Origin: Octopus vulgaris
Lineage: Eukaryota
Direction: 5' to 3'
Assembly: GCA_951406725.2 (NCBI GenBank)
Contig: OX597829.1
Location: 20,336,001-20,400,000 of the forward strand
Length of the DNA: 64,000 nucleotides
Shown here one piece after another: positions 16,836-53,511 of the stretch. Numbering within the stretch: position 1 is the first letter of the stretch; each line of letters opens with the position of its first letter. The notes under the pieces were generated by a model that saw nothing but the letters and a program-made list of their open reading frames with translations, had not been told where the DNA came from and ran no database searches. The position numbers were made by a program, and so were the translations under genes.

Positions 16836-17871
16836 TCTGAGAGTAGTGTCGGTGTCACTTTCACATTATGGATGAGATCCATATTATTTGTGAAGCAGAG
16901 ATCCAGTGTGTTACCTGCCCTGGTTGGTTGGAGTATTACTTGCTCCATGTACAGGGTGTTGATGAGGTTCAGGAGGGACCTCGCCTGTCCTCGTTCACAT
17001 CTTGTCATTCCTGGGAGAGAAAGGCCCTCGGGCCATCTGACATTGGGTAGATTGAAGTCTCCCATGAGAAGTACACTTATGTGTTGTTCTAATGTGATTA
17101 GAACTTCTATTTTTAAAAGGCAGTCCTCAAACTTGCCCATATGGCTTGGGGCATCTGGAGGGCGATATGTAGCACACACAACTACATCAAGTTGCCTTAT
17201 GTGTACAATTAGTGTGTCACACACCGAGTTTGAGTATGACAAAAGGACCTGGGGTGTGAGGTCCTCACGGATGTACATAGCAACTCCTCCATGACTCCTT
17301 TCTTTTCTGTCGGTCCGTAGTACAACATACTGTGGTATGTGTAATTCCGCATCTGCTATGTCCGGTTTCAGGTGCGTTTCCGTGAGTGCTATGCATAAGG
17401 CTTGATTGCATGCGACAAAGTCTCTCAAGAACGGGACTTTTGTCCTGTTACTGTGTGTTAGTAGTCCTCTGATGTTCAGTAGGAGCATCGAGGTGAGGTG
17501 TATGCTGTTGCCGGTGGTGTCCACCCTGGGTCCATCTGCTGTGGCGGTCTTGTGAACTGTGGGTAGTCCCATCTGCGAGCTTGAGTTTGATGGAGCCAGG
17601 TTAGCTGCTGTACAATCTTTTGTGCCATGCACAAAAAGATTCTTGCTCAGCAGCTGCCCTTTCAACAACACGTTGGTGGTTTGTGGCACGCACCACATCT
17701 GCGTACCTCCGTTTTGGGGCAGGTGATGCGTGGTCCATCCCATTTCCTTTCGGTGGTTGGTTTCTGCGGCAGGGTCCTGGATGTGCAAAGCGGCAGCCTG
17801 CACCTTCCTCTCCATGCCGGCAGGCACCTTTCAGGTAGAACCTACATACCCGTGTGCGCTGCTTGTTTCCA
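16836..17871 (-). mobile_element. Truncated LINE, B-family relative (ORF1 CCCH end plus APE endonuclease)
   Basis: [22 protein letters not shown], then MLLLNIRGL..ALTETHL..MGDFN..TLDLCF. The 5' junction abuts (TA)n at ~17871. Confidence 0.9.
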
Positions 17872-18485
17872 TGTATATATATATATATGTATGTATATAT
17901 ATATATATATATATATATATATGTATATATATATATATATATATATATATATATATATATATATATATATATATATATATATATATATATATATATATAT
18001 ATATATATATATATATATATATATATATATATATATATATATATATATATATATAATATATATATATATATATACATATATATATATATATATGTATATA
18101 TATATATATATATATATATATATATATGTATATATGTATATGTATATATGTATATGTATATATGTATATATATATATGTATATATATATATGTATATATA
18201 TATATGTATATATATATATATGTATATATGTATATATATATATATGTATATATGTATATATGTATATATGTATATATATATATATATATATATATATATA
18301 TATATATATATATATATATATATATATATGTATATATATATATATATATATATATATATATGTATATATGTATATATGTATATATGTATATATGTATATA
18401 TGTATATATATATATATATATATATGTATATATATATATATATATATATATATATATATATATGTATGTATATATATGTATATAT
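17872..18485. repeat. (TA)n / (TATG) microsatellite
   Basis: Direct reading. Confidence 0.95.
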
Positions 18486-18945
18486 GTCGTGTGTTTATTT
18501 GTGTTTTTGTGCTATTGGTTTTCCTAATTGACTAATTTAGATATCTGTGTATGTAAGTGCTTTCGTACAGGTTTCGATCTAATTGATTAATTATTCTGTT
18601 GATATATGTGTGTATGTGTGTATATATATGTATTTGTCTTTTGGTATAACATTTTTCCTCATATGAAAACGCACGCGTGTTTGTTTTCGTTTTCGATTTC
18701 AGTACGTTTGATTCAGAGCGGCTTATCTGTTTATCTACTCTATTTATGCGTCGAGTGTATTGTTTACTATTGCTTTGCTTATTGTATTGCTGTATATATG
18801 TCGTGTGTTTATTTGTGTTTTTGTGCTATTGGTTTTCCTAATTGACTAATTTAGATATCTGTGTATGTAAGTGCTTTCGTACAGGTTTCGATCTAATTGA
18901 TTAATTATTCTGTTGATATATGTGTGTATGTGTGTATATATATGT
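18480..18945. repeat. ~145-bp direct repeat, period ~314 bp
   Basis: tatatgtcgtgtgtttatttg..gttgatatatgtgtgtatg at ~18481 and ~18795. Confidence 0.85.
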
Positions 18946-49440: not shown

Positions 49441-49904
49441 ATACATATATCTACATATGGTGGCTGCCCCCTCGTTATCGAGTATGGCCATTGCACGAAG
49501 CTTAATCAATGTTGTTATCGTGCAATGCCAAAGAAGATTTTTTAAAAGTGAGGAAAGGCTGTGCACTGAGTCAATCCCACTCACCAAGCAACAGCAGCCA
49601 CAATCTGAAAAGAAGAACAAGTCAACATCATCAGTAACCACTGAGCCGCAGGTTTGTTGGAGTAATCCCAGTTACCTGAGTTACCTTCTCCTAGAAGGAT
49701 GCCCTAACAAAGTCCTTCACTCCCAATGGTTTAACTGCGTGATCGGGTATTCAGTCTGTTTATTTCTATGACCCCGTGCATGATACAGCCCTTAGACATT
49801 TATTGGATGGCCATTGACTCTCAAGAGTTCCTCTGCCCTTTGACAGGTTTTATTTTTCATCCCGCAGGGTGTCCAATAAACACCCTCCTCATATATACAT
49901 ATAC

Positions 49905-52900
49905 ATACACACCTCTCACAACTCACACACACACACGCACCTACACACCCACTCGAAACCCCATCATTTGCCGATATTCTCTTCGCCATAGACTGTGCAC
50001 TGATAGAGACTGCAAATTCACCCATTTACCTGGAACAAAACGCTCTATCCCCACAAACTACAACAGCAACCACCATAATACAACACCACCACAACCACCA
50101 ATATCTCAAACAAGGAATCCCAAATCTGCCGCTATTCCCAGCGAGACAGATTGTGTTTGCACAGGGATTGCCCCTTTACCCATCTCCTGGGGACTCAGTC
50201 TGACAAATGACATTATAAATAAAAATAAAAGCAAAAAAACCTACGACTCATATAGAAATAACCACAAAAATAATCCACAACCACAGTCACCTACAGTTCC
50301 CTAGACAGGAAACCACCTCTTCTTCCTCTTTTTTAGCTATAATGAATCTAGCAAAAGAACTGGAAAAAAACATCCGAGCTATCACCCACCACTATCCACC
50401 ACTATTACCCCACTGCACATGCCATTAAAAAGCAATCAAATAAACAAATCACCAAAACAATTAAAACCATCCTCTCTCGCCTCAACATTTTTGCTTAATG
50501 CCCTTCCACCAATACACAAAAATGGAAGATAAGATTCCTGGAGGCCTGGGTCGAGGTCCATCCAAACCACATCCCTTTCTTCGTCCTCACTGAAACCCAT
50601 CTTAGTAACCTTCACTTGGAAGCCGAGGTGAAAGTTAAAAATTTCAAAACCATTCGTGCTGATCGTGCTGGCAGAAGAAAGGGTGGGACTGCCATTTATG
50701 TTCATGATTCATTCTCAACAGAAGCCATGAACATATTTTCCAATGGATACTGCGAAGCAGTCGCTGTATTCAGTCAAACCAACAACTTAACAGTAGTTGG
50801 GCTCTACAGACCACCCCAAACGCCCCTACCATGCTTCAAGGAATGCCTCAACAGCATAAAGTGTTTCATTCAGCAGTGTCAACCTGACAACATTTTAATG
50901 ATGGGAGACTTCAACCTTCCTGGGGTTGACTGGTCTACAAACAGTCTACCGCCAGGTTCTTCTCTCTCCCTCAACCCCTGACAGGGAGGCAGTGGAATCA
51001 CTTCTTGACTTCATGGATGATTTCTTCCTGTCCCAACTGGTACTCGAACCAACGAGATGTCATAAAAACGTCTTAGACTTAATTTTCAGCAATCACACTG
51101 ATACTATCCACAATATTGCCGTGGAGAAAACCCTACTCTCCGATCATGACATGGTTCTCTGTGATCTGAGATTTCACTGGCCAAAATGCAAAACAAATGT
51201 CATCCCTCCTGTTCATCCATTTGACACTATGGATTTCCACAATGCAAACTGGGAAGCGATCAATAATGATCTTGCACAAGTCGATTGGTCCTTCACACAC
51301 ACATACACACCCACTAACATCAAAAAGTCCTGGCAGTCATTTGTAGACACCATTACGAACATATGTGCAAAACACACCCCATTAAGATCTGCAAACAAAT
51401 CTAAGTGTCGAATCCCTAGAAATAGAAAATCTCTCATCAGGAAAATTAAAAGAATTAACAAAAAAATCAACAAGCTAAAATACTGTCAACAGCAACACAC
51501 CAACCTGACTGCCATCTCATCGCTAGAGATTAAAAAACATAAACTCCAAAACAACATGATGTCTATCATCAATAGTCAGCGAAGAGCTGAAGGGGCCTGG
51601 GCCATTGAGAAGATCAAACTCAATCCCAAAGTGTTCTTTTCATTTGCAAAAAACACAGAGTCACTGGTCCTACTGTTGGCCCTCTGATTGATGACAATGG
51701 TACTCTTCAAGACAATGCCAAAACCATGGGAGAGATATTTCAGAAACAATATTGCTCTGTTTTCAGCAATCCTGATATGACTGATCTGGGCTGTATCAGT
51801 GAAGTTACTCCCCAATACACTTTATCGGACATAACCTTTGGCGCTCCTGATGTCTTAGCAGCAATAAAGGAAATGAAGCATAATTCAGTAGTAGGTCCCG
51901 ATAGGTTCCCTGCTTGTGTCTTGAAGATGTGTCAAAACCAACTTGCACCCCCTCTAGCCAATCTGTGGCGGAACTCACTGGATGCTGGATATATACCAGA
52001 AGACCTTCTATCCCAGTCTGTTGTCCCAGTTTTCAAAAAGGAAACAAATCGCTTGCCGTGAATTACCATCCAATCTCACTCACCTCTCATATCATTAAGG
52101 TATTTGAGAGAGTGCTGAGATCGCGTATGACTCACTTCCTTGAGAGTCATAATATGCTGAACCCCAACCAGCATGGATTCCGTAATGGGAGAGATTGCCT
52201 GACGCAGTTACTGCATCATTTTGATGACATTTTGAGAGCCTTGGGAGAGGGTTCCAACATTGATGTCATCTACCTTGATTTCAGCAAGGCCTTTGACAGG
52301 GTTGATCATAAGATCCTTCTGAGAAAACTGTCCAATATTGGTGTCACTGGAAAGCTGCTGCAGTGGATCAAGTGCTTCCTGTCTAACAGATCCCAACATG
52401 TTGTAGTCGAAGGAGTCAAATCCAGCCCAGCCAAAGTCAGCAGTGGTGTCCCACAAGGTACTGTGTTGGGCCCACTTCTCTTCATCATCTACATAAATGA
52501 TATTACTGACACCATCAAACACAGTAACATCAGAACCTTCGCTGATGATTCCAAGCTCCAGAAGGTCATCAATGGCGTGGATGACCGAATAAGCCTTCAG
52601 TCAGACCTACTGGCTGTTGTCCAATGGGCGAAAAAGAATAACATGTTGCTAAATGAAGACAAATTCGAACTGATCCACTTTGGAAGGGAGGACGCTCTGA
52701 AACTCCCATACTCTCTTCCTTCTGGAGAAATTCTCATGGCATCCAACAACATCAGAGACTTGGGAGTAACAGTGGACAACAACATAAGCTGGGTTACACA
52801 TATAAGCAGCAAAGTTAACTTGGCTCGCAGAATGTGTTCCTGGATTCTCAGAACCTTCCAGTCGAGAGATTCCCACACTATTATCCTTCTCTTCTCCACT

Positions 52901-53511
52901 TTTGCCCGACCCCAGCTTGAATACTGCTGTCCACTGTGGTCTCCCTACACAAACCAAAATATTATGAGAATTGAAGCTCCCCAAAGGTCAATCACAAAAA
53001 AGATAGATGGCATGTCAGACCTTGACTACTGGGGTAGACTAGAGAAGCTGAAACTGTATTCACTCCAACGACGCCGTGAATGCTACATTATCTGTATGAT
53101 GTGGAAAATATTCCATCAGCACAGTCCGAATGATGTTGGCATCACCTTCAAAATACATCCAAGGCTTGGACCACGTGCCATCAGTCCACAACAAAAATCT
53201 AAATCGCATCACATAACGACAATACGGCACAACTATTTCACCTCAATTGGACCCGCTCTCTTCAACATTACACCAGGACACGTCAAAAAAGAAACTGACC
53301 ACACAAAATTCAAGAAGTCTTTGGACAAATTCCTTCAAACAGTCTCGGACAAACCACCCACACCCGGATATGTCTCCGCAAACAATAACTCTCTGCTCGA
53401 ATGGGCCTTGGTGCCCAAATCCTGAATTGAAAGACTTCGCCAGGTGGTGCTATTAAGTTAGACATGGCCTGGGCCAATACTGGCCAAAACCTTTCTAAGT
53501 TATTCTAAGTT
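49905..53511 (+). mobile_element. LINE E (near-identical to D), 5'-truncated, frameshifted ORF2, 3' end into (TA)n
   Basis: CCCH, APE and RT (FADD) segments to stop 53425; 3' stem-loops and ttctaagtta repeats, then TA. Confidence 0.9.

What the first reader, a model, noticed from the sequence alone, without database searches (positions are those of the whole stretch)
16836..53511. Cluster of LINEs apparently targeted to (TA)n microsatellites
Seen: all five 3' tails (A 23703, C 24868, B' 33950, B 36443, E 53511) run directly into (TA)n. The 5' ends of A, C, B, D and the truncated copy at 17871 also abut TA-rich tracts. Orientations alternate, as expected for a self-complementary target. The ordinary CR1 and RTE fragments here are not embedded in long TA tracts. 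Known: microsatellite-specific APE LINEs exist (Waldo/Mino at AC repeats, Kibi/Koshi at TC/TTC repeats). Inference: this is a CR1-like lineage with a (TA)n preference that builds head-to-head and tail-to-tail arrays in expanded TA tracts.
Basis: partly seen in the sequence, partly recalled or inferred. Interest (0 to 1): 0.85.

Follow-up and report, generated by a model that had tools for sequence, protein, structure and literature searches.

The report
Octopus LINEs inserting into TA microsatellites
Several young CR1-group retrotransposon families in this (likely octopus) genome sit inside (TA)n microsatellites far more often than chance or than other retrotransposons do, most likely because their own proteins choose TA tracts, a target and a clade for which I found no published targeting LINE.

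Summary
The window holds seven copies or fragments of CR1-group LINEs (families A, B, C, D/E). Exact 3'-end motifs occur 520-2,165 times per family in G000. In the first 30 hits each of A, B and C, 79 of 90 tails run into a TA tract, and so do 38 of 54 5' truncation points. A young canonical CR1 gives 5/30 and 2/27, an RTE 9/30, background 4.5%. The controls fit a simple TpA-step preference; A/B/C exceed even an ATAT null (59%). Copies cluster in shared tracts, but orientation is random (14 same, 16 opposite), so alternation is not a rule. Against a simple endonuclease story: copies under 100 bp are weaker (13/22 versus 66/68), a SINE with A's tail is barely targeted (3/30), and the endonuclease hairpin matches the control's. 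ORF1 carries a Myb/SANT-like domain plus CCCH fingers, where the control and marine relatives have PHD-like or other Cys-rich N-termini. Part of the window (29.8-32.4 kb) looks like assembly garble. Verdict: a real, strong preference and a new variant of microsatellite-targeting LINEs; the determinant is untested.

The parts
16836..17872 (-). F: B-like fragment (end of ORF1 plus endonuclease), 90% to B; 5' break abuts a TA tract; no 3' tail
17874..18485 (.). (TA)n tract between the 5' ends of F and A
18486..23702 (+). A: near-full-length LINE; 5' UTR with an internal TA run at 18916-19037; ORF1 from about 19729 (Myb/SANT-like plus CCCH); ORF2 (APE-RT) frameshifted in this copy; twin stem-loop and (AGTAAAAG)n tail
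23703..24868 (.). (TA)n tract between the 3' ends of A and C; holds a tail-less 435-bp duplicate of A's RT region at 23977-24409 (98.9% to A, differences are TA-like), a probable assembly artefact
24869..29438 (-). C: near-full-length LINE; open 1,090-codon ORF2 frame (24959-28231); ORF1 frame 28071-29135 with CCCH fingers; (ATCAAAGT)n tail
29483..32361 (.). TA tract plus a garbled stretch in which B-family RT and EN matches overlap on the same bases (70-80% identity, many gaps); likely a consensus artefact
32362..33949 (+). B': 5'-truncated B copy, 97.3% to B with 14 gap openings; (AATC)n tail
33950..36443 (.). 2.5-kb imperfect (TA)n tract between the 3' ends of B' and B
36444..42435 (-). B: full-length LINE; open 1,039-codon ORF2 frame (36533-39652); ORF1 39481-40392 (Myb/SANT-like plus CCCH); AT-rich tandem-repeat 5' UTR (40450-42435) shared with other copies; (AATC)n tail
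42440..43242 (.). Imperfect (TA)n tract between the 5' ends of B and D
43243..45903 (+). D: 5' half of a C/E-type LINE, cut by the 100-N gap at 45904-46003; 93% to E
43699..43926 (+). Myb/SANT-like domain at the start of D's ORF1 (PF13837, E=4e-6, 27.6 bits, cut-off 27)
49909..53510 (+). E: 5'-truncated, frameshifted LINE, 80% to C; (TTCTAAGTTA)n tail
53511..53534 (.). (TA)12 tract at E's 3' end

Best explanation
These are young CR1-group LINE families whose copies lie inside (TA)n tracts, most likely because the element's own integration machinery picks such tracts. Inferred steps: ORF2p binds the twin stem-loop at the RNA 3' end; its APE endonuclease nicks at a TpA step inside a long alternating TA tract; the nicked strand pairs by 1-3 bases with the short tandem tail, each of which contains TA or AT; reverse transcription proceeds and often truncates. 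The target is palindromic, so either orientation results, and long tracts are hit repeatedly, giving arrays like this one. Loss of long copies from other sites probably sharpens the pattern.
For: Shown: 3' junctions in TA for B 24/30, A 28/30, C 27/30, E 20/30 by script and 26/30 by eye, older family G 15/30. 5' truncation points 38/54 against 2/27 for control K (p=5e-8). The truncations fall at different internal positions, so this TA is not element-encoded. In several copies the same interruption pattern continues on both sides (L015, L050, L058, L002, L026), and 5' and 3' tract lengths do not differ significantly (p=0.16). L075 and L222 sit in the internal TA run of a SINE whose uninterrupted form is known from other copies. 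Nulls: TpA-only 15.5% (K 17% fits), T|AT 31% (RTE 30% fits), ATAT 59%; 79/90 exceeds the last (p=2e-9). Length-matched: 44/45 copies of 1 kb or more against 8/25 rows (7/24 distinct loci) of long K. 88/90 flanks start with A, consistent with a TpA nick plus microhomology. Catalytic APE motifs are intact. Open ORF2-length frames occur in the window (B, C) and in L205, L207, L211-213. Literature: endonuclease swapping changes the target of TRAS1/SART1 (PMC7265360 Introduction; PMC1919474 passages).
Against: The segment that I take, from recalled APE motifs, to be the specificity hairpin (PTR-x-x-N-x-LD) is as short in A/B/C as in non-targeted K. A SINE that shares A's 3' end (43,672 exact hits) is in TA at only 3/30 3' ends by script (a few more by eye) and 7/23 5' ends, although it would use the same ORF2p. 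Copies under 100 bp are in TA 13/22 against 66/68 for longer ones (p=3e-5), and flanking tracts lengthen with insert length (medians 10, 46, 82 bp); a pure nicking preference does not predict this. Four marine relatives with a readable 3' junction (L251, L253, L255, L256) are not in (TA)n. No empty allele was recovered. No biochemical test exists.
Confidence: 0.58

Rival explanations
1. Targeting is active but comes from ORF1p: its N-terminal Myb/SANT-like domain would bind TA-rich DNA and tether the element's RNP in cis, while the endonuclease only prefers TpA steps like other CR1s.
For: All four ORF1 N-termini tested match PF13837 at E<=0.5, best 1.2e-6; D passes the curated cut-off, A and B are weak (0.004, 0.012). 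Eleven columns are invariant across the two deep sub-branches. Control K has a Cys-rich, PHD-like ORF1 by eye. Relative L253 has PHD plus CCCH, and a profile of the domain found no match in the 80 metagenome loci apart from one at E=0.95. The SINE, which need not carry ORF1p, is weakly targeted. The endonuclease hairpin is undistinguished.
Against: DNA binding is not shown. The single-sequence model is poor (pLDDT 64.5) and the ESM Atlas hits are under 0.9. Very short copies come from the same RNP yet are less targeted. The SINE may have been moved by an older partner. The known sequence-specific APE LINEs use the endonuclease.
Confidence: 0.2
2. Passive accumulation: the elements have only a modest TpA/TATA preference; copies elsewhere are purged or deleted, and tracts next to inserts expand afterwards.
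For: The preference rises with copy length (13/22, 22/23, 44/45). Long K copies are also more often in TA (8/25 against 4/26 for K copies of 100 bp or more). Flanking tracts are far longer than background (42% against 3% reach 100 bp). Passive accumulation has been proposed for Drosophila Waldo (PMC3812793 passage).
Against: Most sampled A, B and C copies are 98-100% identical to the window copies, leaving little time. Equally young, equally long K copies are about 70% outside TA. Even short A/B/C copies (59%) exceed the TpA null of 15.5% (p=4e-6). K does not cluster with them (2 observed, 3.2 expected within 10 kb).
Confidence: 0.16
3. The TA is made or carried by the element (microsatellite seeding, or read-through (UA)n in the RNA that also anneals to the target).
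For: 3' tracts are longer than 5' tracts in 32 of 51 untied pairs (medians 29 and 15). E shows 9/21 at 5' against 20/30 at 3'.
Against: The asymmetry is not significant (p=0.16). TA lies at variable 5' truncation points, interruption patterns continue across the insert, and two copies sit inside a SINE's own TA run.
Confidence: 0.04
4. Assembly artefact: repeats were joined through TA tracts.
For: 29.8-32.4 kb is garbled, 23977-24409 is a tail-less duplicate, and D ends at an N gap.
Against: Thousands of dispersed copies, including 40-500 bp ones with TA on both sides; the control LINEs in the same assembly lack the pattern; loose ends beyond B's tail read as TA in short-read contigs of runs X1 and X6, though not X3 or X7; B' lacks B's one private variant. 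This may explain parts of this array, not the preference.
Confidence: 0.02

Closest known systems
Waldo and Mino (R1 clade; ACAY and AC repeats)
   Same: APE-type two-ORF LINEs inserted in dinucleotide-type microsatellites (PMC3812793 passage).
   Different: Different clade and target. The elements here have CR1-type tandem tails and a Myb/SANT-like plus CCCH ORF1, and the target is palindromic, so orientation is random.
Kibi, Koshi and crocodilian Tx1 families (Tx1 clade; TC, TTC, TTCC/TTTC repeats)
   Same: APE LINEs with microsatellite preference, defined by flank counts (more than 20% of flanks; PMC4494074 passages).
   Different: L1/Tx1 group and pyrimidine-rich, strand-asymmetric targets. 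There the partner SINEs share the target; here the tail-sharing SINE largely does not.
Dong (TAA repeats), Togen (TG repeats), some Hero families
   Same: Non-LTR elements in AT-rich or dinucleotide microsatellites (PMC3812793, PMC4640811 passages).
   Different: Togen and Hero are restriction-like-endonuclease elements (PMC4640811); that Dong is R4/RLE is recalled. The elements here encode an N-terminal APE.
Micron and related plant MITEs in (TA)n
   Same: Same target (PMC3812793 passage; PMC8449440 search listing only).
   Different: DNA transposons with a different enzyme and mechanism.
Canonical CR1 (family K of the same genome)
   Same: APE-RT ORF2, short tandem tail, 3' junction at T|A, sister group in the RT tree.
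   Different: PHD-like ORF1, different ORF2 C-terminus, and TA-tract use at the TpA-null level (5/30).

Membership tests
APE-type non-LTR retrotransposon (LINE) | ORF2 with N-terminal APE endonuclease and RT | tested here: met
   PF14529/PF03372 plus PF00078 in B and C; best PDB matches are L1 ORF2p
APE-type non-LTR retrotransposon (LINE) | Fixed 3' end with tail, variable 5' truncation | tested here: met
CR1 group | RT groups with CR1-like elements | tested here: inconclusive
   The clade holding A, B, C and E (support 0.97) is sister to K-like sequences when rooted on two RTE copies (FastTree, 79 rows, 424 columns). The tree has no labelled Repbase or Dfam references; K is called canonical CR1 from recalled C-terminal motifs.
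CR1 group | 3' end of short tandem repeats behind a stem-loop, no poly(A) | tested here: met
   4-10-nt tandem tails; twin stem-loop predicted in A, B, C and E with different sequences (z -1.9 to -2.9). That this feature defines the group is recalled.
CR1 group | ORF1 of a described type (PHD, esterase, RRM, CCHC) | tested here: not met
   Pfam gives Myb/SANT-like plus CCCH. The ORF1 survey PMC4120745 has 0 occurrences of CCCH, Myb, SANT or trihelix. ORF1 is modular, so this does not exclude the group.
Zenon | No ORF1, poly(A) tail (PMC13343379 passages) | tested here: not met
   ORF1 present and tandem tails
Microsatellite-specific LINEs (Waldo/Mino/Kibi/Koshi type) | More than 20% of flanks are one repeat type (PMC4494074 criterion) | tested here: met
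   80-93% for A, B and C, 67% for E, 50% for G. The RTE control (30%) would also pass in this TA-rich genome.
Microsatellite-specific LINEs (Waldo/Mino/Kibi/Koshi type) | Membership of the R1 or Tx1 clade | tested here: inconclusive
   No R1 or Tx1 references in the tree; tails, ORF1 and neighbours in the tree point to the CR1 group
Microsatellite-specific LINEs (Waldo/Mino/Kibi/Koshi type) | Endonuclease cleaves the target sequence-specifically | not testable with these tools
   needs a nicking assay; the alignment shows no distinguishing hairpin
Microsatellite-specific LINEs (Waldo/Mino/Kibi/Koshi type) | Defined cleavage register and target-site duplication | tested here: inconclusive
   88/90 flanks begin with A, but tail microhomology and the repeat hide both register and duplication

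The most novel reading that the evidence does not exclude
A CR1-group LINE lineage has replaced the PHD of ORF1 with a Myb/SANT-like DNA-binding domain and uses it to tether its RNP to (TA)n tracts: target choice by ORF1p rather than by the endonuclease. Its own 5' UTRs and a very abundant partner SINE carry TA runs, so the system also spreads its own landing sites.
Probability: 0.2. Interest if true: 0.85.

Novelty: new variant of a known kind. Interest (0 to 1): 0.58.

Why it matters
In the passages I read, target-specific LINEs belong to the R1, Tx1 and restriction-like clades. A strongly targeted set of CR1-group families, with (TA)n as target and an unusual ORF1, would be an independent origin of the 'hide in a repeat' strategy. 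The genome also supplies its own experiment: young targeted families, a young untargeted CR1 and a tail-sharing SINE side by side. Domain swaps could ask directly whether the endonuclease or ORF1 sets specificity. It also bears on octopus genome structure: 2.7% of sampled bases are TA tracts, and LINE clusters form in them.

Tried and rejected
DNA search of G000 with B's 3' end found nothing because common words are skipped; exact patterns were used instead. Laying contigs on B's junction failed because the repeat is masked (it shows only that B is abundant in runs X1 and X3). The empty-allele test at L028 was inconclusive: no contig bridged the site and the flank was repetitive. RTE 5' junction calls and family G 5' calls were unreliable and are not used. 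The '24/29' is element-internal 5' UTR, not target, and is not used. Fold searches with the weak model of the Myb/SANT-like domain listed no Myb fold; this is inconclusive. phmmer of the endonuclease against PDB found nothing. The maximum-likelihood tree did not finish; FastTree was used. The profile search of 1.84 billion proteins with the domain was still queued at the end. Fold-back origin of B' was not supported, on one informative site. Obligate alternation was rejected. Three look-ups of earlier findings returned nothing. One review sought by DOI was not held.
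Full report
SETTING. The window is G000:C16:20336001-20400000 in a 2.8-Gb genome of 227 contigs. The host is inferred to be an octopus: the only homologue of B's ORF1 is an Octopus vulgaris protein (45%), and an Argonauta hians protein is 58% identical to B's ORF2.

ANATOMY. Between 16836 and 53510 lie seven LINE pieces: F(-), A(+), C(-), B'(+), B(-), D(+), E(+). B and C have open ORF2 frames of 1,039 and 1,090 codons with APE and RT domains. A and B are 69% identical in DNA, C and E 80%, D and E 93%; B and C share 37% of ORF2 residues. 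All five tails meet (TA)n at the stated bases. B's true 5' end runs through a tandem-repeat UTR to 42435, shared with L203/L210. A's runs to about 18486 and contains a TA run of its own. Two stretches look mis-assembled: 29.8-32.4 kb, where RT and endonuclease matches overlap on the same bases, and the tail-less duplicate at 23977-24409.

GENOME-WIDE TEST. Exact 3'-end patterns gave 2,080 (B), 520 (A), 2,165 (C), 617 (E) and 1,511 (G, a fifth family 68-70% identical to C) hits. For each I examined the first 30 hits in position order, all on contig C1. This is not a random sample, and exact matching favours young copies. A flank counted as TA if six perfectly alternating bases began within 2 nt, or if 12 or more of 19 steps were TA/AT. 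Results at 3': B 24/30, A 28/30, C 27/30, E 20/30 (26/30 by eye, where mutated tails defeated the parser), G 15/30. At 5', among copies whose end lay within 1.5 kb and had no N: B 12/17, A 10/13, C 16/24, E 9/21. Twenty longer loci gave 21 alignment rows; 14 had a 5' tract of 16 bp or more. Four of the other seven stopped inside the element's own UTR, and three were true non-TA junctions. A whole-genome count for B gave 644 of 1,003 forward ends with TATATA starting within 30 nt, tail included, against 8.6% background; the same rule gives 22/30 for B and 5/30 for K in the samples.

CONTROLS. Twenty 10-kb stretches at round-number positions gave 4.5% by the same rule, with 2.7% of bases in (TA)5+. 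K, a young canonical CR1 (2,769 hits), gave 5/30 and 2/27. An RTE (772 hits) gave 7/21 parsed plus 2/9 by eye. Both are above background (K p=0.01), but they match nulls conditioned on a T|A step (15.5%) or T|AT (31%). A/B/C at 79/90 exceed the ATAT null of 59% (p=2e-9), and among flanks starting ATAT, 52/61 continue as strong tracts against 39% expected. Long K copies gave 8/25 rows (7/24 distinct loci) against 44/45 for A/B/C copies of 1 kb or more.

IS THE TA PRE-EXISTING? Mostly yes. It flanks truncations at many different internal positions. In several copies the interruption pattern continues across the insert, although the own-versus-cross similarity is modest overall (0.30 against 0.20, n=22). 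5' and 3' tract lengths do not differ significantly. L075 and L222 interrupt the internal TA run of a SINE. No empty allele was recovered.

ARRAYS. Among 236 listed 3' ends of A, B, C and E in the first 137 Mb of C1, 20 neighbour pairs lie within 10 kb (expected 4.0, maximum 13 in 2,000 uniform simulations); half are between families. K is not drawn to them. Orientation is 14 same and 16 opposite within 20 kb. Clustering is real; alternation is not a rule.

RESULTS AGAINST A SIMPLE STORY. Copies under 100 bp, many of which stop near the base of the 3' stem-loops (39-53 nt), are in TA 13/22 against 66/68. Flanking tracts are much longer than background and lengthen with insert size; this may reflect a preference for long tracts, expansion after insertion, selection, or assembly inflation. 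A SINE that shares A's last 50 or so bases has 43,672 exact hits but is in TA at only 3/30 3' ends by script, a few more by eye, and 7/23 5' ends. In short-read contigs the loose ends beyond B's tail are TA in X1 and X6 but not in X3 or X7; such contigs are probably biased against long TA.

RELATIVES. In an RT tree (79 rows: 5 octopus CR1-group, 2 RTE, and those of P0001-P0040 and of 34 chosen metagenome loci that covered the RT), A/B and C/E fall in different sub-branches of one clade (0.97) that is sister to K-like sequences. There were no labelled references, so the subclade is unnamed. Four metagenome relatives with readable junctions are not in (TA)n, and a fifth (L292) ends in (ATAC)n. 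These are single copies from genomes of unknown TA content.

PROTEINS. APE catalytic motifs are intact. The presumed hairpin is as short as in K, and a longer loop after GDFN is shared with the non-TA relatives. ORF1 begins with a Myb/SANT-like domain (4 of 4 match PF13837 at E<=0.5; D passes the cut-off) followed by CCCH fingers. K's ORF1 is Cys-rich and PHD-like by eye with no Pfam support; L253 has PHD plus CCCH; L255 and L256 have no Pfam hit. The predicted model has three helices at pLDDT 64.5 and is too weak to confirm the fold.

MECHANISM. Shown: the association, its excess over controls and nulls, random orientation, clustering, domain content. Inferred: nicking at TpA inside the tract, priming through 1-3 bases of tail microhomology, and repeated hits on long tracts. 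I give endonuclease-led targeting sharpened by selection 0.58, ORF1 tethering 0.20, passive accumulation 0.16, and seeding or artefact 0.06 together. Active targeting of some kind is therefore about 0.8.

LITERATURE. Ten searches found no (TA)n-targeting LINE, no target-specific CR1 and no Myb/SANT ORF1 in a LINE. The library lacks most subscription papers and Repbase Reports, where such notes could exist. Seen: PMC13282606, parts 1-2 of 3 (all main text; lists 13 recently active CR1 families in O. vulgaris and says nothing on targets; its supplement and deposited library were not read and may bear on this); PMC7265360, abstract and Introduction; passages only of PMC4640811, PMC3812793, PMC4494074, PMC1919474, PMC13343379, PMC10294476, PMC4120745, PMC11481361, PMC2666801, PMC13708176, PMC4758252, PMC5786205 and PMC3520747; search listing only for PMC8449440 and PMC13645644. 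The labels 'canonical CR1' for K and 'hairpin' for the endonuclease segment rest on recalled motifs.

VERDICT. A real and strong (TA)n preference in several young CR1-group families. It works like Waldo/Mino/Kibi/Koshi but does not appear to belong to their clades. New variant of a known kind; interest 0.58.

Noticed in passing
window 58429-58806 (-); also 7048-7268, 11383-11579, 16290-16390, 55981-56181: A very abundant SINE with a tRNA-like head (by eye; 43,672 exact hits of a 38-nt 3' motif) shares LINE A's 3' stem-loops and tail and carries an internal (TA)n/(TG)n run that serves as a landing site for C and E copies (L075, L222), and at least one K copy (L141).
   Followed up: partly
L062-L089, L009-L029 (short copies): Many copies are only 39-53 nt plus tail and begin near the base of the first 3' stem-loop, suggesting a reverse-transcription stall; they are less often in TA.
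   Followed up: partly
L397-L426 against window 18486-19640: Family A has two unrelated 5' UTRs that switch at about window position 19638; the commoner one is AT-rich, the window's has an internal TA run.
   Followed up: partly
window 61152-63791: Two 898-bp inverted arms (99%) around a GIY-YIG-like frame, a probable Penelope-like element (by eye); its right end abuts a TA run at 63791-63811. A second Penelope-like 3' fragment lies at about 10190-11334.
   Followed up: no
window 57487-58335 (+): Single-exon C2H2 zinc-finger array (8 or more fingers) of the kind expanded in octopus.
   Followed up: no
L009 (G000:C1:11467290): A short B copy sits near the centre of a roughly 28-bp palindrome rather than in pure TA, a hint that hairpin- or cruciform-forming DNA may be what is recognised.
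   Followed up: no
L414 (G000:C41:38273-38512): An A copy with a 1,327-codon open frame that includes the ORF1 N-terminus, i.e. ORF1 and ORF2 apparently in one frame; may be a sequencing indel.
   Followed up: no
window 47002-47903: 338-bp tandem repeat (2.7 copies, 97%) that starts directly after a TA run at 46972-47003; not identified.
   Followed up: no
G000:C1 about 71.4-72.0 Mb: Dense cluster of A and B 3' ends (about 17 within 0.6 Mb), a larger hotspot than this window.
   Followed up: no
window 8700-10020 (-): Decayed frame with a weak RVT_3 (RNase H-like) match at 9033-9566, interrupted by a SINE head at about 10025; not classified.
   Followed up: no
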